A program made the translations under genes and the position numbers. The notes beneath the pieces were generated by a model. The model was given only the letters and a program-made list of their open reading frames with translations, was not told the origin of the DNA and ran no database searches. Shown in pieces: positions 293 through 51,223 of a stretch of 64,000 nt of DNA. This stretch comes from an uncultured Bacteroidales bacterium (GTDB taxonomy: Bacteria > Bacteroidota > Bacteroidia > Bacteroidales > VadinHA17). How positions within the stretch are numbered: the first letter of the stretch is position 1; each line of letters starts with the position of its first letter. The DNA lies in assembly GCA_963725785.1 (NCBI GenBank), contig CAVRZV010000016.1, forward strand, positions 251,171 through 315,170, in the 5' to 3' direction.

Positions 293-299
293 TCATATT

Positions 300-396
300 C
301 TCTGTGGTCCTCTGTGCCTCCTCTGTGATACTCAGTGTAAGTTCTTAAGAAATTGTTACACAGAGAGACACAGAGAAGACACAGAGCGTCACAGAG
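300..396. repeat. phased heptamer inverted-repeat element, copy A (CTCTGTG x4 / 21-nt loop / CACAGAG x4)
   Basis: CTCTGTG at 300, 310, 321 and CTCAGTG at 331. CACAGAG at 359, 369, 380, 390. Spacing is mirrored (10, 11, 10) and the central loop is 21 nt. It sits between the convergent 3' ends of asd and hflX. Confidence 0.85.
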
Positions 397-14228: not shown

Positions 14229-17200
14229 TTATTTTGCCGAGTAAAGCTTACCGTAATAATTATTTATCAATGGTTCGATAGTTGTTGTTATAGAATCCAA
14301 TTTCAATCTTATCGAAAGATTATAAATATCAAGCAATCCCTGCATGTTAATCCCTTCAGTGTATTCCAGACCATATCTCTCTTCAGGCCTTAAACTGATT
14401 GCATAATCAAGATATTCTTTTGAATAATTTATGATATCGTTGATTAACTTTTTCCCTTCATCCGTCTTTCCAGCCCTGATAAGAACTTCTGCAAGGCTGA
14501 TGGTAAAAAAGTCGTATGGCATTTTTTGGGCAGGAACAAGATCGAGTCCCCGGTGAGCCGCCTCGACAGCTTTTATTGTATCTCCCCTCAGAACCAACTC
14601 CTTACCAAGGGATCCGAAAATTCTCCTGAAATTGCAAAACATTCGTTTGTTGTTTTCATCGAGATATACAGAAGGATCACTTGCATTCCCCCATTTGAAC
14701 TTGTTCATCATATTGTCGTACATTACAATGGGATCGATCATTCCGAATTCCCCCTGTTCAGGTTTATCAGTCTTTACAGGAGCAACTCTGTAAGCAAGGC
14801 CTTCCTCAATAAAGTACTTCTCAAGTCCCTTATATTGAGTTGAAGGAACCGTAGTAGAAAAGTATATAGGTCTTTCCCATTTATTTGTGGAGATCAGGTC
14901 CATAATCGCAAGGTCACCTTTAAAAGCATCAGCCTCGGAATACTCCCAAATCATTGGGGAAACCAATCTGTTTCTATAGTAGTCCTTTACTGTTCCGTTT
15001 GAAAGCACTTTAGAGGAATCTACATCAATAATGAATTTATTTGCCGGAATATAGTTCATATAATCGCCCCGTCCGCTAAGATCAATCTTATATTTACTAT
15101 CATCATTACCCACAAACTGGACAATATCTTTCAGATTAACAGGTTTTTCGACCCTGTTGTTTACAGGTAGCTGTTCTCTCACACCCTCAACGTATTTATC
15201 CTCCGGAAGAGTAAATGGCAGTGGATCGGACCCATATGCTTTCTGTCTCATCATATCGATGTACCAGCCGGCTTGTATGTAACTCAGGTTCGCGACACGG
15301 ATATCAGTTCCCACTTTTTCAACATCCTGATTATACCATACAGGGAATGAATCGTTATCCCCGTAAGTGAATAAGATACCGCCCGGTGCACAGGATTTCA
15401 GATAATTTGCGCCAATATCCCGAGCAGTGTACCGGCCAGAACGATTGTGGTCGTCCCAATTCTGAGCACCCATTAAAACGGGGACAGCAGCAATAAGAAC
15501 CAAAAAAGTAACAGCCAATGATCCTTTATTTCCAAGTAACTTCTGAAGGCTCTCATAAACAAACATAAATCCTATTCCGATCCACACTGCAAAGGCATAA
15601 AATGATCCAACATATGCATAATCGCGTTCCCTCGGCTGATTAGGATACTGATTAAGATAAAAAATAATTGCGAGTCCTGTCATTATGAAAAATGCAAGCA
15701 CAAGCCAGAATCCATTTCTGTTTCTCCTGTATTGCCAGTACATACCTGCCAGTCCGATCAGCAGCGGAAGAAAATAATATTTATTGTTACCCGGATTGGT
15801 TTTCAGATCACCGGGAAGATTATCAAGCTTTCCCAGTCGTGCTTCATCTATAAATTTAATACCACTTATCCAGTTGCCATGAATGGGATTCCCGTTACCC
15901 TGAACGTCATTTTGCCGGCCTGCGAAATTCCACATAAAGTATCTCATGTACATAAATCCAATCTGGTAGCGAAAGAAATAGCGGAGATTTTCACTAAAAG
16001 TCGGACAAACAATAGCCTCTTTATCGGAACCGGAATTTACCCTGTATTTTCTGCCAACAATCTTTCCCCAGTATTTATAGGCACTCTCGTGGTCAGGATC
16101 TTCACTGTACATGCGCGGAAAGAATGTTTCAAACTGTTTATCGTATGTATATTCCGACTGGTAATACGGTTTATACTTTCCATCCAGTTTATTATATCCG
16201 GCAATTACTCTTTTTACGTCTATTTTAGGAGCACTGTAGTAGTTTCCAAAGAATTTTGGAGCACTTCCATATTGCTTCATATTAATGTAATACGACAATG
16301 AGAAAACATCAGAAGGATTATTCTGGTTCATCGGTGGCCTGGCAGATGATCTGATCATTATCATTGCATAGGATGAATAGCCGATCATTATCACAGTCAG
16401 TGAGGTCATGATAAAATTCAGAATTATCCTTTTATGTATTAAAGAGTAATAGATCCCATAAGCCATGCCTCCAAAAAGAATTACTATATAGAACAGAAGT
16501 CCGCTGTTATAAGGTAAGCCCAGAACATTTACAAATAACAGTTCAAACCATCCGGCTACCTGAGGAATTCCCGGCATCAAAACAAAAACCATCAGCCATA
16601 GAAGCAAAAGTGCAACCAAAACGGTTTTTATCACTCCTCTGGTTGTAATTTCATATTTCTTGAAATAGTATACAAAAACAAGAACCGGAATAATGAGAAG
16701 GTTAAGACGATGAACACCGAGACCAAGTCCCATGATATAAGCAATCAATATTATCCATCTTCCGGAATACGTTTCATCAGCTTCTTCTTCCCACTTCAGC
16801 ATTCCCCAGAAGACGAGAGCAATTATGAGTGAAGAGAGGGCATACAATTCACCTTCAACGGCAGAAAACCAGAATGTATCTGAAAATGTGAATGCGAGGG
16901 CTCCCAACACACCGCTGCATATTATTGCGGGAACATGTGTTGATTCAAGAGTTTTCCCATTCACGAATACTTTTCGTACAAGGTGGGTAATTGTCCAGAA
17001 AAGGAACATAACAGCAAAACCGCTGCACAAGGCTGACAAAGTATTTACCGTTACGGCAACTTTAGTGGTGTCGCTTCCCGCAAAAAGCGTGGCAACTCGT
17101 CCCATCATCAGAAACAGTGGAGCGCCGGGAGGGTGACCGACCTGCAGTTTAAAAGCAGATAGAATGAATTCACCACAGTCCCAGAAGCTAACTGTTGGTT

Positions 17201-17294
17201 CAAGAGTCAATAAATAGACTATAGTTGAAACGATAAATACAAACCATCCTGTATAATTATTCCAGCGACGGTAATTGCCCCATACTGAATCCAT
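14229..17294 (-). CDS. large membrane protein, DUF2723-like (glycosyltransferase-fold candidate)
   Basis: 1021 aa with a polytopic N-terminal half and a large soluble C-terminal half. It resembles Bacteroidota DUF2723 proteins. Confidence 0.7.
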   Translation of the reverse strand: MDSVWGNYRRWNNYTGWFVFIVSTIVYLLTLEPTVSFWDCGEFILSAFKLQVGHPPGAPLFLMMGRVATLFAGSDTTKVAVTVNTLSALCSGFAVMFLFWTITHLVRKVFVNGKTLESTHVPAIICSGVLGALAFTFSDTFWFSAVEGELYALSSLIIALVFWGMLKWEEEADETYSGRWIILIAYIMGLGLGVHRLNLLIIPVLVFVYYFKKYEITTRGVIKTVLVALLLLWLMVFVLMPGIPQVAGWFELLFVNVLGLPYNSGLLFYIVILFGGMAYGIYYSLIHKRIILNFIMTSLTVIMIGYSSYAMIMIRSSARPPMNQNNPSDVFSLSYYINMKQYGSAPKFFGNYYSAPKIDVKRVIAGYNKLDGKYKPYYQSEYTYDKQFETFFPRMYSEDPDHESAYKYWGKIVGRKYRVNSGSDKEAIVCPTFSENLRYFFRYQIGFMYMRYFMWNFAGRQNDVQGNGNPIHGNWISGIKFIDEARLGKLDNLPGDLKTNPGNNKYYFLPLLIGLAGMYWQYRRNRNGFWLVLAFFIMTGLAIIFYLNQYPNQPRERDYAYVGSFYAFAVWIGIGFMFVYESLQKLLGNKGSLAVTFLVLIAAVPVLMGAQNWDDHNRSGRYTARDIGANYLKSCAPGGILFTYGDNDSFPVWYNQDVEKVGTDIRVANLSYIQAGWYIDMMRQKAYGSDPLPFTLPEDKYVEGVREQLPVNNRVEKPVNLKDIVQFVGNDDSKYKIDLSGRGDYMNYIPANKFIIDVDSSKVLSNGTVKDYYRNRLVSPMIWEYSEADAFKGDLAIMDLISTNKWERPIYFSTTVPSTQYKGLEKYFIEEGLAYRVAPVKTDKPEQGEFGMIDPIVMYDNMMNKFKWGNASDPSVYLDENNKRMFCNFRRIFGSLGKELVLRGDTIKAVEAAHRGLDLVPAQKMPYDFFTISLAEVLIRAGKTDEGKKLINDIINYSKEYLDYAISLRPEERYGLEYTEGINMQGLLDIYNLSIRLKLDSITTTIEPLINNYYGKLYSAK

Positions 17295-17402
17295 AAAGGA
17301 ATTTTTTTGATTAATAGCTGAACAAAGAACGTAAAAAAAATTTATTTGACTTCAATTATGATTCTAATTAACATCTCTTTAACTCAGAACGATTTTTTTA
17401 TT

Positions 17403-17469
17403 GGACACGCCATGGCGTGTCCCTACATCCAATCCAAATGTAGATGTAGGGTCATGCCATGGCATGACC
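17403..17469. repeat. compound palindromic element with two CCATGG-centred 20-nt perfect palindromes
   Basis: ggacacgccatggcgtgtcc (17403-17422), ctacatc ... gatgtag, then ggtcatgccatggcatgacc (17450-17469). Each 20-mer is a perfect palindrome, and the whole unit is an imperfect 67-nt inverted repeat. Confidence 0.85.
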
Positions 17470-17480
17470 TCAAACTAATT

Positions 17481-17996
17481 CTATAAGAAGTATCTCCATG
17501 GCTTGTTCTTCCAGTATTCACCGGCATATTCAATACCAATCCTGGGGCCGCTTTTAACCCTGTGAATTAACCCCGGATCTTCTAACCAGATTCTTGCCGA
17601 GTTGACCAGATCTTCCCCATAAAATGTTTTATCTATTCCAAGCAATTTTGTCAATCTGCCGGGTCCGGGATAATTTTCAAGACCTCTTATCAGAACGGCC
17701 TGAGGATTGTTCTTTCCTCCCGTAACAATATTCAGCATCCAATACATCCCGTATATAAGATAGACATACAAACGGCCTCCTTCATGAAACATAATTTCAG
17801 TTCTGGCTGTTCTTCCCTTAAAAGCATGGCATGCCTTGTCCTCAGTCCCTCTGTAAGCTTCGACTTCAGTGACCCTGAGCCGGCTTAAAGAACCATCGCT
17901 CATTTTCACAACAATAATTTTACCGGGTAGCTCCGGTGCCACCTCAAGAACATCTCTTACATAAAAATCTCTTGATAATCTTTTCTGCGAATTCAT
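17481..17996 (-). CDS. mpg: DNA-3-methyladenine glycosylase (Mpg/AAG family)
   Basis: 171 aa with the family-typical VEAYRG...DKACHA...YVYLIYGMYWMLNIV. Confidence 0.85.
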   Translation of the reverse strand: MNSQKRLSRDFYVRDVLEVAPELPGKIIVVKMSDGSLSRLRVTEVEAYRGTEDKACHAFKGRTARTEIMFHEGGRLYVYLIYGMYWMLNIVTGGKNNPQAVLIRGLENYPGPGRLTKLLGIDKTFYGEDLVNSARIWLEDPGLIHRVKSGPRIGIEYAGEYWKNKPWRYFL

Positions 17997-24078: not shown

Positions 24079-24174
24079 TACCCCCTTCCCAGCCCCCGCC
24101 GAAGCGGGGCAGGCTTTCCCCCACGGGGGAGGGAGTAATAACATTTCCCCCTTGGGGGAAAACGAAAGGGGGTA
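24079..24174. repeat. C5/G5 palindrome cluster (second locus)
   Basis: ccccgc-cgaa-gcgggg, tccccc-ac-ggggga and tttccccc-tt-gggggaaa (24144-24161) are enclosed by taccccctt ... aagggggta. It lies in a divergent intergenic region. Confidence 0.65.
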
Positions 24175-24345
24175 AAAGTCGCTTGATATAACTTCGGTAC
24201 CAATTAATGAGGGTAAGATATAAAAAATAATAGTCATGATATAATAGGGTATAATGTCAGGTCAAAGGTCTTAGTGTTGAAATGGAAAGAATACGGTATT
24301 CGGAAACAAAATGAATTTAAATTAAAAACTTAATAAATTAATACC

Positions 24346-44964: not shown

Positions 44965-47637
44965 TTATAATGAGAACCAGTAATTCAATTTAATAAGAAA
45001 GATATTGTTGGGAAATATCCTCCTGAGTTGTTTATATGAATCTCCAATAGAAGCGTGTGAAGCATTTGTGCTACCTGACCTTTCTGATGACCAGACCAGA
45101 TAAATGAAGGATCCCAGCCTGTATTCCCATTTTGCCACCAGATTCGAACGGAACTCATGAAAGTTAAAATCGGGATTGTCGATTGAATAATCTATCCTGG
45201 GGCCATTAGTATAATCATATAATTGATATTTCCCGTCTGAGATAACAGGATCATTATAAAGTTCAAACCTGTCTCCATAAACTTTTGCAGAGGGATCTGT
45301 AATATGCTTAAACTGTGAATAACTACCCCTCGAGACAAACGGACTTCCATAATACTGTATTGAAAACTCCGGAGTAAGGTTCAGATCTATCCTGAAAGTC
45401 AGCCCAAAGGTTTTCTGCTCAATAGTACCGAGAATATACCTGTTGCCTGGTACGGAATAATTCGTGGTTACATACTGCAGATTATCACGATTATACATAT
45501 AATTTGCTGTAATTCCAATTTTGAGGTTATTTATCGGGCGGTAGGTTAGTCCCGGTTCAAGCTGATAATTAGTTGCAGAGTTATTTCCTTTATGTCCATA
45601 GCTGTAATTCACACTGCCAATCAATTTCTTTGACGGATCGGTGGCTGCTCTTCCGAAGGCTTCAAGTGAATTTGGCATTTCCATGTCATATCCGCCACGC
45701 AATATTTTGGTATCCAGTGATTTTGAGGAATATATCAGATTAGCAGCAAAGCTCCACTGGTTTTTGAATCCTGATGAAAAGGAGAGATGAGCTCCGGATC
45801 CAAGGTACTTTCCATCAAAGTTCCAGCTATTGAACTGCTCAAGGCTAATATCGTATGTAAGGAAGATCGAAACCGGCTGATTAATCATATAAGAAATCAC
45901 ATTCTCCTGATTTATCTGATCAGAAGTATTCATGTAACCCAGGTCATTTAGTTCCAGACCCGGAGAAAGCCAGTTAGCTCCTGTTGAATAACGCCATAAA
46001 CCTTTGGAACCTTTTCCGATCACAAACTTGCCTCCGTACCCGCTGAGTGCTGTAGCTAAAGTATCAAATTTCAAATAGCCTGCACCGGGTCGCTGATAAT
46101 ATCGTGCTGATGATTTCTGAAGCGCTGTAATAGCTTTCCTGTTACCATTTAAAAAGCTTCCGATAAGCCTGGCATCAATATAATACTCTTTATCTTTCCA
46201 GTGGGTCAGAAGATCAAGGCCACCGGTATATGCATTAGTGCTGAGAGATTCCAGATTTTTATCTTCGATATCCCGGTTTGTAGAGGTAATCATTCCTCCT
46301 ATTACCGTATTTCCCGCATTGTAACCCTTCTGAATACGTGCAACTGTGTAACTTGTGAGTGGTTCTACCTTAATACTGCTTCTGTTGCCATCATTATCGC
46401 TGAGCGTGGCAAATTCATTCGCAGTAACACTTTGTATCAATCCCACTGAAAGTCCCTTCGAGGTTGTTCCACTTAACTTCACCGCACTAAGGATTGAGGT
46501 TTTATCGGGAGAATTTACAAAAAGAACTTCGTTAGGGGTAACAGGTCTTGAGGGTGCATGACCAATCCTTCTTGAGTAAAACAGGCTCTGGTTATCAAAC
46601 GTGTAATCAAAAATAGTTAACCCTTCCATGAAGAAAGGTCTTTTTTCCTCATAAAATGTCTCAAATGCAGTGAGATTCATTACAGAAGGGTCAGACTCAA
46701 CCTGTCCGAAATCAGGATTGACAGTCAGGTCAACTGTGAAGTTGCTTGAGATTCCTATCTTTGCGTCAAGTCCGGCATTACCTCCCCACACTCTTCCCTT
46801 GTCGGCAAAAGGATTACCCGGTTCCCTTTTCATAGTTTTTAAGTCGCCGAGCATGTACGGCATTATTTCAAGACGATGTGATTTTTTCAGACCTTTTATA
46901 CCACGCAGCTCACCGAAATTATAAAGCATTCCCGGTCCTGTCTTACTTTGTATCTCCCAATCGCTTTCTTCCTGAAGTCGGGCAATCCATCGCCACACAT
47001 GCATTCCCCAGACCTGATCATCTTCACCGCTGTACCTCAATTGACTCAGAGGAATCTCATATTCAGCCACCCATGCAGAATCTTCTTTTCCCACTTTTGC
47101 CTTCCAGACGGGGTTCCAGTTGAAATCAGCGTTCATAGGGTTGAATAATATATTATCAACCTTCTGACCCCATGCGGTTATATTAAACTCGAACCCCGTC
47201 CGGTAATCGCGGTAGCTGTCAAAGTTAATACCCACTACATCTCCTACAAGTTCATCCCTTACACCGGCTAATCTGAGAATCTTTTTTGGCTCTCCATCAT
47301 ATGCACGAAAAGCAATATAAAGATTCTTGTCATCATACTGGAGATTTAATTCTGTAGGATATGTTGGTTTTGCTCCTTCATTTGGAATCCATTGTGTGAA
47401 ATTGCCTGCCCACGTCCCTTTTTTCCAGCATTCGTCATCAAGTTTTCCATCAATAACAGGTTTTGCGGTAACAAGTCGTGAAGCATCGTAAACAGGTTGC
47501 TTTGTGGAATTCTGTGTACGCACAGTGTCCTGAGGATTTACAGGTACCTCACCGGAAGATGATGAATATGACCTGATCGAAAGAAGAGTGAAGATAATAA
47601 GTGTTATAGTTCTGACAGGAGTCTGTGATAGATTCAT
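44965..47637 (-). CDS. CBM9-like / DUF5916-type outer-membrane protein
   Basis: The likely start is MNLSQTPVRT (47637). The N-terminus is carbohydrate-binding-family-9-like (IDGKLDDECWKK) and is followed by a large beta-rich region ending in an aromatic residue. Confidence 0.65.
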   Translation of the reverse strand: MNLSQTPVRTITLIIFTLLSIRSYSSSSGEVPVNPQDTVRTQNSTKQPVYDASRLVTAKPVIDGKLDDECWKKGTWAGNFTQWIPNEGAKPTYPTELNLQYDDKNLYIAFRAYDGEPKKILRLAGVRDELVGDVVGINFDSYRDYRTGFEFNITAWGQKVDNILFNPMNADFNWNPVWKAKVGKEDSAWVAEYEIPLSQLRYSGEDDQVWGMHVWRWIARLQEESDWEIQSKTGPGMLYNFGELRGIKGLKKSHRLEIMPYMLGDLKTMKREPGNPFADKGRVWGGNAGLDAKIGISSNFTVDLTVNPDFGQVESDPSVMNLTAFETFYEEKRPFFMEGLTIFDYTFDNQSLFYSRRIGHAPSRPVTPNEVLFVNSPDKTSILSAVKLSGTTSKGLSVGLIQSVTANEFATLSDNDGNRSSIKVEPLTSYTVARIQKGYNAGNTVIGGMITSTNRDIEDKNLESLSTNAYTGGLDLLTHWKDKEYYIDARLIGSFLNGNRKAITALQKSSARYYQRPGAGYLKFDTLATALSGYGGKFVIGKGSKGLWRYSTGANWLSPGLELNDLGYMNTSDQINQENVISYMINQPVSIFLTYDISLEQFNSWNFDGKYLGSGAHLSFSSGFKNQWSFAANLIYSSKSLDTKILRGGYDMEMPNSLEAFGRAATDPSKKLIGSVNYSYGHKGNNSATNYQLEPGLTYRPINNLKIGITANYMYNRDNLQYVTTNYSVPGNRYILGTIEQKTFGLTFRIDLNLTPEFSIQYYGSPFVSRGSYSQFKHITDPSAKVYGDRFELYNDPVISDGKYQLYDYTNGPRIDYSIDNPDFNFHEFRSNLVAKWEYRLGSFIYLVWSSERSGSTNASHASIGDSYKQLRRIFPNNIFLIKLNYWFSL

Positions 47638-48679: not shown

Positions 48680-50026
48680 TTAATGAATATCTGATGCGCT
48701 CTGAATACCTTCCGCTACTTCAGGAATTATGCCCAGTTTAATATAGATTGGTCTTACAATCGTTCTGAGTTCAGGAAGTTTTCGTAAAAAGAAAAGAGCA
48801 CCTATAATGCAAGCTATACCACCTGTAAAGATTGTCCATGGTGTTCCGATAACCTTTGCCAATCCTCCTGCCATCAGGCTGCCGAACGGAGCTGTTCCCA
48901 TTATTGCCATTGTATAAAAGCTCATTACTCTTCCCCTTTTATCATCATCGGTTATTGTCTGAAGAATAGTATTGCTTGCAGCAGTTTGCATCATCATTCC
49001 AAGACCAATAAAGAGCATAAGCACCAATGAAAGGGAAAAGATCCTGGAAAATGATAATACAATCAGCCCGACTCCAAAAAGGATCGCTGAAGCAGGAACA
49101 ATTCTACCCAGTTTCAGAACTGATTCGCGCGAGGCCAGGAACAATGCCCCAAGGAGTGCACCAAACCCGGCAGCTCCCATAAGAAAACCATATGTGTTTG
49201 ATCCTCCATGCAGGATCTCTTTAGCAAAAACCGGCATCAGTACGGAATAGGACATACCCATCAGGCTTGAAATACTCAATAATATCAGGAGATGCCTGAT
49301 CGGTGCAAATCCAAATGCGTAACGAAGTCCTTCGCTAAGTTCATTTAATATCCGTTCATCCTTAATATGAGTTTCTTTAACATGTAACCTCATCATTAGC
49401 AAAGATATAATCACAAATATATAGCTAATGGCATTAATCAGAAAGCAGATACCTTCGCTTGTGGAAGCCAGCATTACACCAGCTATTGAAGGGCCAATTA
49501 GCCTGGCTCCGTTAAACATCAAAGAATTAAGAGCAATGGCATTACCCAGATCTTCCTTCTTCTCAACCATGTCTATTACAAATGAGTGCCGCGCTGGTAC
49601 ATCAAATGCGTTGATGCAACCAAGAATAATACTTAAAACTACTATGTGCCAGATTTGTATAACTCCCGTCAGACAAAGACCGGCGAGAACAGCTGCCTGA
49701 ACCAACGAAACGATCTGTGTAATAAGCAATACCCGATATCTGCTCCACCGGTCAGTAAGCACCCCTGCAACAGGTGAAAGCAGAAAAGTTGGTATCTGTC
49801 CCGCAAAACCCACAACTCCTAAAAGAAGCGTGGATCCGGTCATATGATAAACAAGCCATGGCAATGCAATCCTCTGCATCCATGTGCCGATAAGCGAAAT
49901 ACTTTGTCCGCTGAAAAAGAGCCTGTAATTCCTGTATTGAAGCGAACGGAATACTATTTTGAATCTGCCCCTGCCATTCCCGGGCCCATCCTTATTCATC
50001 AGTTTTTTCCATAAATGTAAGGACAT
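48680..50026 (-). CDS. MFS transporter (MFS_3 / EntS-like)
   Basis: About 12 TM segments, with FRSLQYRNYRLFFSGQSISLIGTWMQ typical of the family. The ATG at 50026 lies inside a palindrome, so the start may instead be M10 at 49999. Confidence 0.8.
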   Translation of the reverse strand: MSLHLWKKLMNKDGPGNGRGRFKIVFRSLQYRNYRLFFSGQSISLIGTWMQRIALPWLVYHMTGSTLLLGVVGFAGQIPTFLLSPVAGVLTDRWSRYRVLLITQIVSLVQAAVLAGLCLTGVIQIWHIVVLSIILGCINAFDVPARHSFVIDMVEKKEDLGNAIALNSLMFNGARLIGPSIAGVMLASTSEGICFLINAISYIFVIISLLMMRLHVKETHIKDERILNELSEGLRYAFGFAPIRHLLILLSISSLMGMSYSVLMPVFAKEILHGGSNTYGFLMGAAGFGALLGALFLASRESVLKLGRIVPASAILFGVGLIVLSFSRIFSLSLVLMLFIGLGMMMQTAASNTILQTITDDDKRGRVMSFYTMAIMGTAPFGSLMAGGLAKVIGTPWTIFTGGIACIIGALFFLRKLPELRTIVRPIYIKLGIIPEVAEGIQSASDIH

Positions 50027-50045
50027 GCCATGGCATGTCCCTACA
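50021..50045. repeat. CCATGG-centred 20-nt perfect palindrome plus CTACA (same family as 17403-17469)
   Basis: ggacatgccatggcatgtcc is flanked by tgtaag and ctaca, giving a near-perfect 30-nt palindrome. Confidence 0.85.
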
Positions 50046-50073: not shown

Positions 50074-51117
50074 TTATTTTTTTACAGGCGCTATATCCAG
50101 GATATTGAATGAATCGGGTTTGGTCGTCCTTCTTGGTCCGGGGTTATCTGCGGTTGCCGCAGGAGCCGGATTGAATTCTGCAGCAGGCATATAAATATGA
50201 TGAGATTTTGTGTCAAGAGCTAAGGTTCTTGCACCAGGCATTGTGGTGACATTTTCCAGAACATTGAAACTATCCTTATTTATTTCCTGCACAACTGTCA
50301 TGGTTCCGTCTCCATTTGAACTGTAAGCTCTCTTCATTCCAGGATCAAACTTCACACCGTCGCATCCGTTCCCAATCGGTAAATTTGCAACAACGTGGCC
50401 ATCAAGGGCATCAATAACTATCATCAGTTTGTTACTGCAAACTGTAAAAAGACGATGAGTCTCATTGTCCAGAGCCAGTCCGCTTGCTTCTTCGCCGGGA
50501 GCAATAGGCCAGGATTTCTCAACTTTGAGTGTTTTGACATCAATAACGGAGATCAGACTCTTGTCTTCGATATTCACATAAATTTTCCCATTGCCGTCTG
50601 AAGCCGGGAACTCCGGTTTCCCTTCCAGGGCAATTGTTCCGACTACAACATTTGTTGCCGCATCAAGAACAGTTGCATTAGCTGTCCTCCCGTTAAATAC
50701 AAATACTTTTTTCGAAAACTGATCATACATAATTGCATCAGGATTCTCTCCGGTTACCTTAACATCAATAATTGTTGCCAGTGTTTTCAGATCGATAACT
50801 TTTACTGAAGCGCTTCTGCCTACACTAATAAAAGCTTTGTTCAGATCCTGTGCAATTGCTATACCATGCACCCCTGGTGTCTCAGCAACTGTTCCCACAA
50901 GCTGTCCGGTTTTCAGATCAACAACCTGTACAACCGTTCCATGCGAGACGAATAATCTTCCCCCGGTTTCATCAACAGAAAGATAATCCCATCCGCCATC
51001 ACCCGGTAAATGGATTTTATTTACAATACTGTACTCTGATTTGGAATTCTGCCCCTGCAGGCTTAACCCAAATGCAAGGAGTAGCAAACTACTGAAAAAA
51101 ACCAAAGACGTTTTCAT
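50074..51117 (-). CDS. secreted YncE/YVTN-like beta-propeller repeat protein
   Basis: The likely start is MKTSLVFFSS. It has repeated ~40-aa blades with a ...V.VIDxxT... pattern. Confidence 0.65.
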   Translation of the reverse strand: MKTSLVFFSSLLLLAFGLSLQGQNSKSEYSIVNKIHLPGDGGWDYLSVDETGGRLFVSHGTVVQVVDLKTGQLVGTVAETPGVHGIAIAQDLNKAFISVGRSASVKVIDLKTLATIIDVKVTGENPDAIMYDQFSKKVFVFNGRTANATVLDAATNVVVGTIALEGKPEFPASDGNGKIYVNIEDKSLISVIDVKTLKVEKSWPIAPGEEASGLALDNETHRLFTVCSNKLMIVIDALDGHVVANLPIGNGCDGVKFDPGMKRAYSSNGDGTMTVVQEINKDSFNVLENVTTMPGARTLALDTKSHHIYMPAAEFNPAPAATADNPGPRRTTKPDSFNILDIAPVKK

Positions 51118-51223
51118 TTTTTCTCTTTTAGTATATATTTGGAAATAACTTAATTCTGACAAGAAAGTCGTTCAGATTATTCCTGCGAATAATAAGATGA
51201 AAACAATCTCTTAACAATTTTGT

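What the first reader, a model, noticed from the sequence alone, without database searches (positions are those of the whole stretch)
17403..17469. CCATGG-centred 20-nt perfect palindromes with compensatory variation (REP-like family)
Three units occur in the window: GGACACGCCATGGCGTGTCC, GGTCATGCCATGGCATGACC (both at 17.4 kb) and GGACATGCCATGGCATGTCC (50021-50040). They differ at two positions, and each change is matched on the other half, so every unit stays a perfect palindrome. At 17.4 kb two units are joined through ctacatc...gatgtag into a 67-nt super-palindrome. All copies lie between same-strand genes. Preservation of symmetry implies selection for a hairpin, a cruciform, or a dimeric binding site. 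The NcoI-type core could also mean a restriction/modification-related or protein-recognised site.
Basis: seen in the sequence. Interest (0 to 1): 0.6.

Follow-up and report, generated by a model that had tools for sequence, protein, structure and literature searches.

The report
GTAG-footed REP/REPIN hairpin repeats
The three CCATGG-centred palindromes are real copies of a small hairpin repeat (REP/REPIN) of a kind already described, linked to a single-strand-DNA transposase family (RAYT/TnpA-REP subclass 2.4); this is a correct call but an ordinary feature.

Summary
Three perfect 20-nt palindromes GGNCAYGCCATGGCRTGNCC lie at 17403-22, 17450-69 and 50021-40 (0.02 expected by chance). Each carries a GTAG/CTAC 'foot'. 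The pair at 17.4 kb is an inverted dimer with the feet facing inward.

The same motif occurs in at least 120 loci of public genomes, mostly Bacteroidota, Acidobacteriota and Chloroflexota. Of 153 units, 138 are perfect palindromes, and all 8 possible compensated variants occur.

Ten of those loci carry a Y1 HUH transposase gene with NH[IV]H, WQ and YIxNNP motifs. In most of them the palindromes sit in frame inside the gene. This matches TnpA-REP subclass 2.4 (RAYT group 4) and its 'long' and 'double-foot' REPs (Quentin et al. 2018).

At the orthologous site in related metagenome contigs, the dimer is intact in four lineages, decayed in three and absent from most. In the intact copies, 0 of 40 unit positions vary, against 28 of 57 in flanks and spacer.

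Units sit downstream of gene 3' ends: 33 of 35 intergenic cases are tandem or convergent. No T-tract follows the hairpins, CCATGG is not unusually frequent, and there is no Rfam match.

No RAYT gene lies in the window, and the rest of the genome could not be searched. Verdict: new member of a known kind, low to moderate interest.

The parts
17403..17422 (.). REP unit 1, 'CAC type': GGACACGCCATGGCGTGTCC, a perfect palindrome with an 8-bp stem and CATG loop
   Evidence: As single-stranded DNA the hairpin folds at -9.1 kcal/mol, z = -4.7.
17423..17449 (.). Spacer of the dimer, bounded by the two inward-facing feet: CTAC at 17423-17426 (GTAG on the minus strand) and GTAG at 17446-17449
   Evidence: Spacers of 26-30 nt bounded by CTAC...GTAG occur in 10 other dimers. 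The spacer is homologous to that of L105, which lies at an unrelated locus.
17450..17469 (.). REP unit 2, 'CAT type': GGTCATGCCATGGCATGACC, a perfect palindrome
17403..17469 (.). REPIN-like inverted dimer of 67 nt ('TT' dimer, feet inside); predicted to fold as one long imperfect hairpin
   Evidence: DNA -22.8 kcal/mol (z = -6.5), RNA -45.4 kcal/mol (z = -7.5).
17384..17480 (-). Block containing the dimer and its short flanks, absent from the shortest orthologous alleles. It lies between the glycosylase stop codon and the conserved box GTTAAAGAGATGTTAATTAGAA.
50017..50044 (.). Single 'double-foot' REP: GTAA-GGACATGCCATGGCATGTCC-CTAC (20-nt core at 50021-50040)
   Evidence: Folds at -9.7 kcal/mol with the feet paired.
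17481..17996 (-). Upstream gene, DNA-3-methyladenine glycosylase; its stop codon lies 11 nt before the dimer
   Evidence: homologues carry PF02245
14229..17294 (-). Downstream gene, TMEM260_N/DUF2723-like membrane protein; its start lies 108 nt beyond the dimer
   Evidence: Pfam labels of the orthologues
50074..51162 (-). Gene upstream of the single REP; its stop codon lies 33 nt from the 20-nt core
48680..50026 (-). Downstream MFS-type transporter ORF. The longest reading starts inside the REP; the true start is probably further downstream.

Best explanation
The three units are REPs (repetitive extragenic palindromes). They belong to the GTAG-footed type that goes with RAYT/TnpA-REP subclass 2.4 (Bertels group 4), a Y1 HUH single-strand-DNA transposase. 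The pair at 17.4 kb is a REPIN-like inverted dimer.

Inferred mechanism, by analogy with E. coli TnpA-REP and IS200/IS605 TnpA: on transiently single-stranded DNA, each unit folds into an 8-10-bp G+C-rich hairpin. The RAYT recognises the hairpin together with its GTAG foot, then cuts and rejoins the DNA through its HUH motif and catalytic tyrosine. This copies or maintains the elements. The compensated variation follows because only folding-competent copies are recognised and propagated.

Copies accumulate just downstream of genes, where they are tolerated. There they are probably co-transcribed as 3' hairpins.

Shown here: the sequence family itself, the feet, the compensation, the dimer architecture, the physical link to RAYT genes in other genomes, presence/absence at an orthologous site, and the placement at 3' ends. 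Inferred: the catalysis, and the presence of a cognate RAYT in this genome.
For: 1. The three units are far beyond chance.

By phylum: 48 Bacteroidota, 34 Acidobacteriota, 16 Chloroflexota, and smaller numbers from Chlorobiota/Ignavibacteriota and others.

3. Of 153 units, 138 are perfect palindromes, against 12.5% expected if the four free positions were independent. All 8 possible compensated types occur.

4. Of the units, 76% carry a GT[AG][GC] or [CG][TC]AC foot, and 53 carry both.

5. Ten of the 120 motif loci contain a Y1 HUH gene. Intact ORFs of 179-199 aa match NF047646, REP-associated tyrosine transposase, at E about 1e-14. They also match the TnpA-REP structure 4ER8 weakly. They carry the motifs NH[IV]H, WQ and YIxNNP.

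6. [quoted passage not shown] The family has 6766 homologues. At least 97 of the best 120 carry 1-5 such units.

7. These properties are the published description of subclass 2.4: median length 194 aa; found in Cyanobacteria, Bacteroidetes and various other phyla; 'long' and 'double-foot' REPs; REPs inserted within tnpAREP (PMC6006769). Group 4 is reported as common in Caldilineae and Chlorobia (PMC5581495).

8. At the orthologous site, the dimer is intact in the window, L123, L136 and L150/L154. It is decayed in L161, L124/L125 and L146. It is absent from the other roughly 65 readable loci, including the closest relatives.

9. L105 carries a homologous dimer, spacer included, at an unrelated locus.

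10. In low-GC loci, 21 intergenic clusters are tandem, 12 convergent and only 2 divergent. This matches the published REP distribution (PMC3733652).
Against: No RAYT gene lies in the 64-kb window. A cognate enzyme in this organism is therefore not shown.

Only three copies were seen in this genome, so high copy number is not shown.

The stem foot here is GGA or GGT, not the three G-C pairs described for 'long' subclass 2.4 REPs.

The RAYT ORFs score 48-54 bits against NF047646, below its 80-bit cut-off. They are relatives of the canonical RAYT, not equivalogs.

Zero change in 40 unit positions across four orthologous copies could equally reflect a host function rather than transposase-linked maintenance.

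No biochemical test was possible.
Confidence: 0.85

Rival explanations
1. The hairpins are mainly host RNA elements: 3'-UTR stem-loops that stabilise the upstream mRNA or terminate transcription. On this view they are conserved for that role, and any link to a transposase is historical. This does not exclude a REP origin.
For: Both sites begin 11-33 nt after a stop codon, on the transcribed strand's path. Of 35 intergenic clusters in other genomes, 33 lie downstream of at least one gene. At the orthologous site the two units show 0 of 40 variable positions, against 28 of 57 in flanks and spacer. The minus-strand RNA folds at -45.4 kcal/mol, z = -7.5.
Against: No T/U tract follows the hairpins, and the terminator scan finds none. 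In L105 a separate canonical terminator follows the dimer. Most orthologous loci lack the element altogether, so it is dispensable. A purely structural RNA role would tolerate compensated changes, yet the orthologous copies are identical in sequence. The same sequence inside RAYT ORFs and across phyla is not explained by a local RNA role.
Confidence: 0.3
2. The palindromes are double-stranded DNA sites for a dimeric protein or a restriction-modification system that recognises the CCATGG core.
For: The units have perfect dyad symmetry and an NcoI-type core. Their sequence is strictly conserved at orthologous sites. RAYT genes of this family sit inside type I R-M operons in L023 and L206, and beside a ResIII helicase in L120.
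Against: CCATGG occurs 11 times against about 8 expected, so it is neither avoided nor enriched. Positions 3/18 and 6/15 take all 8 compensated combinations, which a base-specific reader would not tolerate. Sister lineages replace the core with ACATGT or AAATTT but keep the hairpin and feet. The asymmetric GTAG foot and the dimer architecture are REP features. Type I enzymes recognise bipartite sites, not 6-bp palindromes.
Confidence: 0.04
3. The three palindromes are chance matches or low-complexity artefacts.
For: There are only three copies in 64 kb.
Against: Shuffles give 0.02 expected matches and none gives 3. Identical units with the same feet and dimer spacing recur in more than 100 other genomes.
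Confidence: 0.01

Closest known systems
REPs cognate to TnpA-REP subclass 2.4 / RAYT group 4 (Quentin, Siguier, Chandler & Fichant 2018, PMC6006769; Bertels et al. 2017, PMC5581495)
   Same: The units are long G+C-rich hairpins with a 5' GT[AG]G foot, often with the reverse-complement foot as well ('double foot'). The associated genes carry NH[IFV]H, WQ and YIxNNP and are about 194 aa long. [quoted passage not shown] The taxonomic range is the same: Bacteroidetes, Caldilineae, Chlorobia and scattered phyla.
   Different: This particular CCATGG-centred sequence was not found in the searched literature. The window's units start GGA or GGT rather than with three G-C pairs. No RAYT gene was seen in the window. 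Two points I did not find in the passages read: the strict CAC-type plus CAT-type composition of spaced dimers, and the invariance of the units at an orthologous site.
GTAG-tagged REP superfamily (Di Nocera, De Gregorio & Rocco 2013, PMC3733652)
   Same: The units are 20-40-bp palindromes with a terminal GTAG tag. Subfamilies differ by complementary stem changes. Dimers lie 20-100 bp apart in inverted orientation. The units sit between unidirectional and convergent ORFs, downstream of coding regions, with occasional in-frame copies inside ORFs.
   Different: That survey listed GTAG repeats in Proteobacteria, Cyanobacteria, Chloroflexi and the PVC group, and only CGTC repeats in Bacteroidetes. 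The dimers here have the feet inside ('TT'), which that paper describes as the less common type in most families.
REPIN-RAYT systems of Pseudomonas and E. coli, and BIMEs (Bertels & Rainey 2011, PMC3116915; Messing et al. 2012, PMC3479197)
   Same: Two REPs in inverted orientation around a short spacer behave as one unit, and the spacer is homologous between unrelated loci. The GTAG foot plus hairpin is the recognition element of the E. coli enzyme. The dimers combine two distinct unit types, as E. coli BIMEs combine Y and Z REPs (the E. coli points are from my own knowledge).
   Different: The RAYT subclass is different (2.4, against 2.2 and 2.5). The stems are perfect, without bulges. The apparent copy number is much lower. 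The REPs lie inside the transposase gene rather than only flanking it.
Rho-independent terminators
   Same: A G+C-rich hairpin lies shortly after a stop codon.
   Different: There is no T-tract, and the sequence is repeated across loci and phyla.

Membership tests
GTAG-tagged REP (Di Nocera 2013) | Short (20-40 bp) palindromic unit able to form a stem-loop | tested here: met
   The units are 20-nt perfect palindromes. As single-stranded DNA the hairpins fold at -8.1 to -9.7 kcal/mol.
GTAG-tagged REP (Di Nocera 2013) | GTAG (or a degenerate GTRG/GYAG) tetranucleotide at one end | tested here: met
   Feet are CTAC at 17423-26, GTAG at 17446-49, and CTAC at 50041-44 with GTAA at 50017-20. Across other genomes, 76% of 152 units have such a foot.
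GTAG-tagged REP (Di Nocera 2013) | Many copies dispersed in one genome | tested here: inconclusive
GTAG-tagged REP (Di Nocera 2013) | Extragenic location, mostly downstream of ORFs, between unidirectional or convergent genes | tested here: met
   Both window sites lie between same-strand genes, 11 and 33 nt after a stop codon. In other genomes: 21 tandem, 12 convergent, 2 divergent.
GTAG-tagged REP (Di Nocera 2013) | Subfamilies that differ by complementary stem changes | tested here: met
   Of 153 units, 138 are perfect palindromes, and all 8 compensated types occur.
REPIN (Bertels & Rainey 2011) | Two REPs in inverted orientation around a short spacer, repeated as one unit | tested here: met
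   The window dimer is 17403-17469. Ten further dimers are spaced 46-50 nt. L105 has a homologous spacer at an unrelated locus.
REP-RAYT system, TnpA-REP subclass 2.4 (Quentin 2018) | A RAYT gene in the same genome | not testable with these tools
   There is none in the window. The genome beyond the window could not be retrieved.
REP-RAYT system, TnpA-REP subclass 2.4 (Quentin 2018) | [quoted passage not shown] | tested here: met
   Seen in other genomes: L023, L020, L046, L056, L032, L015, L095 and L120. At least 97 of 120 homologues carry 1-5 units.
REP-RAYT system, TnpA-REP subclass 2.4 (Quentin 2018) | Protein motifs NH[IFV]H, WQ and YIxNNP, with a length near 194 aa | tested here: met
   L023 has NHVH, WQ and YIINNP (199 aa). 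L020 has NHIH, WQ and YIKNNP (190 aa). L015 has NHIH, WQ and YIRHNP (179 aa).
REP-RAYT system, TnpA-REP subclass 2.4 (Quentin 2018) | Hairpin foot of three G-C pairs ('long' REP), or feet on both sides ('double foot') | tested here: inconclusive
   The window units have two G-C pairs followed by A-T or T-A. The 50-kb unit is double-footed with one mismatch. GGG...CCC variants dominate in G+C-rich genomes.
Canonical RAYT equivalog (NCBIfam NF047646) | Score at or above the curated cut-off of 80 bits | tested here: not met
   The scores are 48-54 bits, E about 1e-14. PF01797 gives 17-23 bits against a cut-off of 23. The proteins are relatives within the superfamily, not equivalogs.
Intrinsic terminator | G+C-rich hairpin followed by a T-tract on the transcribed strand | tested here: not met
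   The scan finds no terminator-like site in 17200-17600. On the minus strand an A-run follows the hairpin.
Restriction-modification target (CCATGG) | The site is avoided or enriched, or is methylated | tested here: not met
   CCATGG occurs 11 times against about 8 expected. Methylation cannot be tested with these tools.
Rfam RNA families | Match at the family's gathering score | tested here: not met
   Only two tRNAs match in the window. At the site there are only sub-threshold matches to miRNA-type hairpins.

The most novel reading that the evidence does not exclude
The REPIN carried in frame inside subclass 2.4 RAYT genes may not be an accidental insertion. It may be a built-in master copy that travels with the gene. 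On this reading, a horizontally transferred RAYT can seed and re-seed its own REP population in a new host. That would explain three observations: the identical 20-nt core in at least 8 phyla, units that stay invariant at orthologous sites while their flanks diverge by about 50%, and spaced dimers that always pair one CAC-type unit with one CAT-type unit, in the genome and inside the gene alike. The recurrent placement of these RAYT genes inside type I R-M operons might then reflect a shared route of transfer or a functional link.
Probability: 0.15. Interest if true: 0.55.

Novelty: new member of a known kind. Interest (0 to 1): 0.25.

Why it matters
The finding adds a concrete, easily searched REP sequence for the poorly studied subclass 2.4 RAYTs, which occur in Bacteroidota and other non-proteobacterial phyla. 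REP biology has been worked out almost entirely in Proteobacteria. The orthologous series found here (intact, decayed and absent alleles of one REPIN) gives a natural data set for asking whether such elements are maintained by their transposase, by host selection, or by neither. The units are also strong hairpins in 3' UTRs, so they matter for annotating transcript ends and for assembling these genomes. None of this changes current understanding, and the class and its odd habit of sitting inside its own transposase gene are already published.

Tried and rejected
- **Rfam:** the gathering-threshold search found only two tRNAs. The permissive search at the site gave only sub-threshold miRNA-type hairpin matches.
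- **Literature search by sequence:** four 14-16-mers returned only unrelated papers, none on bacterial repeats.
- **Terminator reading:** no T-tract and no hit in the scan.
- **R-M reading:** the CCATGG count is ordinary.
- **Diverged copies in the window:** fuzzy matching with up to 7 substitutions on the 28-mer found only the three known units. With up to 4 substitutions on the core, one extra hit at 45674 is at the level seen in shuffles.
- **RAYT in the window:** tblastn and a family HMM found nothing. The best hit was E = 0.02 at 9.4 bits.
- **Source genome:** exact-protein look-ups for three window proteins, and for the 100%-identical P0121, returned nothing.
- **Linking a RAYT to a relative of the window organism:** P0005 and P0147 lie on contigs of similar length, but these turned out to be different contigs.
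- **CRISPR-like reading of the L015 array:** rejected, because the 77-78-nt period is repeated in full, so it is a tandem duplication of REP plus flank.
- **Hetero-dimers as a block to the long hairpin:** the long fold is still favoured, at -22.8 kcal/mol against -17.2 for two local hairpins. That explanation is left as conjecture.
- **Orthologues of the 50-kb site:** not examined.

Full report
**Observation**

- GGACACGCCATGGCGTGTCC at 17403-17422
- GGTCATGCCATGGCATGACC at 17450-17469
- GGACATGCCATGGCATGTCC at 50021-50040

A search with the degenerate pattern, allowing up to three mismatches, finds only these three. Shuffles give 0.02 expected matches, and no shuffle gives three. They are the only 20-nt perfect palindromes in the window; the next longest is 16 nt.

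The two units at 17.4 kb belong to a 27-nt inverted repeat, 85% complementary, with 13 nt between the arms. Both sites lie between genes on the minus strand:
- The dimer begins 11 nt after the stop codon of a DNA-3-methyladenine glycosylase gene. It ends 108 nt before the start of a TMEM260/DUF2723-like gene.
- The single unit begins 33 nt after the stop codon of a 362-aa ORF.

The window has 38% G+C and Bacteroidota-type genes.

Every unit has a CTAC(A) tail, which reads (T)GTAG on the other strand. In the dimer both feet face inward. The 50-kb unit has a foot on each side: GTAA...CTAC, a 28-nt palindrome with one mismatch.

**Spread and symmetry**

By record title:

| Group | Loci |
|---|---|
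| Bacteroidota | 48 |
| Acidobacteriota | 34 |
| Chloroflexota | 16 |
| Pseudomonadota | 8 |
| Chlorobiota/Ignavibacteriota | 4 |
| Other phyla and unclassified | 10 |

The pattern leaves positions 3/18 free and allows both transitions at 6/15, so it can detect broken symmetry. Of 153 units in distinct contexts, 138 are perfect palindromes. If the free positions were independent, 12.5% would be expected. All eight possible compensated types occur.

A GT[AG][GC] or [CG][TC]AC foot is present on at least one side in 76% of units, and on both sides in 53 units.

Dimers spaced 46-50 nt, with a spacer bounded by CTAC...GTAG, occur in ten further loci. All ten, and the window dimer, pair one CACG...CGTG unit with one CATG...CATG unit.

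**Link to a transposase**

Reading L120 showed a degraded gene flanked and interrupted by the palindromes. Its product matches NCBIfam NF047646, REP-associated tyrosine transposase.

tblastn and a family HMM then found such genes in 10 of the 120 motif loci. Intact ORFs of 179-199 aa come from an Ignavibacteria genome (L023), Ancylomarina (L020), an Anaerolineales MAG (L046) and a Bacteroidales MAG (L015). Their matches:
- NF047646 at E about 1e-14, 48-54 bits, below the 80-bit equivalog cut-off
- PF01797 weakly
- the E. coli TnpA-REP structure 4ER8, over the WQxRF...YIxxNP region

The palindromes lie in frame inside these ORFs, between the HUH motif and the tyrosine motif. They are translated as VGTRHGVSL, VGTCHGMSL or GRGTPWRAPT, depending on frame. 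L032 carries a whole dimer inside the gene.

A protein search found 6766 homologues, some labelled 'REP element-mobilizing transposase RayT' by their source. Among the best 120:
- 44 carry CCATGG-core units.
- 52 carry ACATGT-core units (VGTRHVVSL).
- 1 carries both.
- Most of the remainder carry an AAATTT-core unit (VGAENFLPL) in the same loop.

So the hairpin and the feet are kept while the core changes with the protein lineage.

**Comparison with what is known**

Quentin et al. 2018 (PMC6006769) define TnpA-REP subclass 2.4, which corresponds to Bertels group 4. Their description:
- motifs NH[IFV]H, WQ and YIxNNP
- median length 194 aa
- a variable insertion between beta3 and alphaC
- distribution in Cyanobacteria, Bacteroidetes and various other phyla
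- two REP types, 'long' and 'double foot' (5' GT[AG]G with its reverse complement at the 3' end)

Bertels et al. 2017 (PMC5581495) report group 4 as common in Cyanobacteria, Chlorobia and Caldilineae, and as associated with moderately abundant 16-mers.

Di Nocera et al. 2013 (PMC3733652) describe the GTAG-tagged REP superfamily: complementary stem variants, inverted dimers 20-100 bp apart, and placement downstream of ORFs between unidirectional and convergent genes. That paper listed only CGTC repeats for Bacteroidetes.

The units here meet these descriptions. The particular sequence was not found in the searched literature. I therefore file this as a new member of a known kind.

**Behaviour at an orthologous site**

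A metagenome scan with the glycosylase protein gave 80 orthologous loci. Look-ups gave five more. The states found:

| State of the dimer | Loci |
|---|---|
| Intact | window, L123, L136, L150/L154 |
| Decayed by uncompensated changes or partial deletion | L161, L124/L125, L146 |
| Absent | the other roughly 65 readable loci |

The loci lacking the dimer include the closest relatives: L121 at 88% protein identity and L127/L128 at 84%. L121 and L128 carry a different C-run/G-run hairpin element at that position.

The shortest alleles have about 50 nt between the glycosylase reading frame and a conserved promoter-proximal box. The window has about 100 nt more.

Among the four independent intact copies (the window, L123, L136 and L150):
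- 0 of 40 unit positions vary.
- 28 of 57 positions vary in the flanks and spacer.
- 37 of 99 positions vary in the promoter-proximal stretch.

With a background of about 0.4 variable sites per position, zero in 40 has a probability near 1e-9 (my arithmetic).

L105 carries a dimer with a homologous spacer, between a different and convergent pair of genes. A separate canonical terminator follows it.

Together these results show an element that is dispensable, is present at unrelated loci as a whole dimer, and either stays exact or decays.

**Placement**

In loci below 50% G+C, intergenic clusters with both neighbours defined are 21 tandem, 12 convergent and 2 divergent. In tandem cases the element usually lies nearer the upstream stop codon than the downstream start. 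A further 10 clusters lie inside ORFs, and half of those ORFs are RAYT genes.

**Rival readings**

- **Terminator or RNA-stabiliser role.** The placement and the invariance fit. However, no T-tract follows the hairpins, most orthologues lack the element, and a purely structural role would not demand sequence identity. I keep this as a possible secondary use, not the identity of the element.
- **Duplex protein site or R-M target.** The ordinary CCATGG count, the eight compensated variants and the alternative cores in sister lineages argue against it.
- **Chance.** Excluded.

**Limits**

No RAYT gene lies in the window. I could not reach the rest of the genome, so neither the cognate enzyme nor the copy number in this organism is shown. 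The mechanism (hairpin plus foot recognised on single-stranded DNA, then cut and joined by the HUH/tyrosine enzyme) is inferred from the E. coli and IS200/IS605 work cited in those papers. It was not tested here.

The dimer is predicted to fold as one long imperfect hairpin (-22.8 kcal/mol as DNA) rather than two local ones (-17.2 in total). The reason for the hetero-dimer rule therefore remains open.

Noticed in passing
window 296-395 and 1655-1755: Two structures share one design: inverted arrays of three or four tandem 9-10-nt units around a centre of about 40 nt. One reads (CTCTGTG..)n ... (CACAGAG..)n and the other (CCTTTGTG..)n ... (CACAAAGG..)n. They look like iterated protein-binding sites or the ends of a small element.
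   Followed up: no
window 24085-24175; also L121 1790-2050 and L128 downstream of the glycosylase gene: The window holds a cluster of short C-run/G-run hairpins (cccccacggggg, ccccttggggg, ccccgccgaagcgggg). Similar CCCCCC...GGGGGG hairpin elements occupy the orthologous site in the closest relatives, in place of the REP dimer. This suggests a second small hairpin repeat family in this lineage, and that the intergenic region is a hot spot for such inserts.
   Followed up: partly
L023 2412-8000; L206 1142-8576; L120 600-3900: Subclass 2.4 RAYT genes sit inside type I restriction-modification operons. L023 has HsdR-HsdS-RAYT-HsdM, and L206 has HsdM-HsdS-RAYT...DUF3800...HsdR. In L120 the RAYT lies beside a ResIII-type helicase whose ORF also contains a palindrome in frame (VGARHGVPL). 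That is 3 of 11 RAYT loci examined. The others lie among housekeeping genes.
   Followed up: partly
L012, L014, L032, L035, L049, L062, L085, L105, L119 and window 17403-17469: Every dimer spaced 46-50 nt pairs one CACG...CGTG unit with one CATG...CATG unit, and the two units also differ at position 3/18. The same pairing is seen inside RAYT ORFs (VGT[SC]HGMSL with VGTRHGVSL). The cause is unknown. It may be avoidance of a long perfect palindrome, or a need for two unit types as in E. coli Y/Z BIMEs.
   Followed up: partly
L015 5499-6250; L048 5963-6021; L095 and L120: Some loci hold tandem arrays in which the REP plus its flank is repeated. L015 has a period of 77-78 nt directly upstream of a RAYT gene, and L048 a period of 39 nt. 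In the Acidobacteriota, closely abutted CAT+CAC pairs flank and interrupt degraded RAYT genes.
   Followed up: partly
proteins P0001-P0120 (homologues of the L023 RAYT): The variable loop of these transposases carries one of three alternative palindromic cores, according to lineage: CCATGG, ACATGT or AAATTT. Inside the genes the CAT-type unit is often VGTSHGMSL rather than the perfect-palindrome translation VGTCHGMSL. That would mean a single base change that removes a cysteine at the cost of one stem mismatch.
   Followed up: partly
window 50024-50026: The longest reading of the MFS transporter ORF (48680-50026, minus strand) starts at an ATG inside the REP unit. The real start is probably a downstream methionine, so automatic annotation may over-extend this gene into the repeat.
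   Followed up: no
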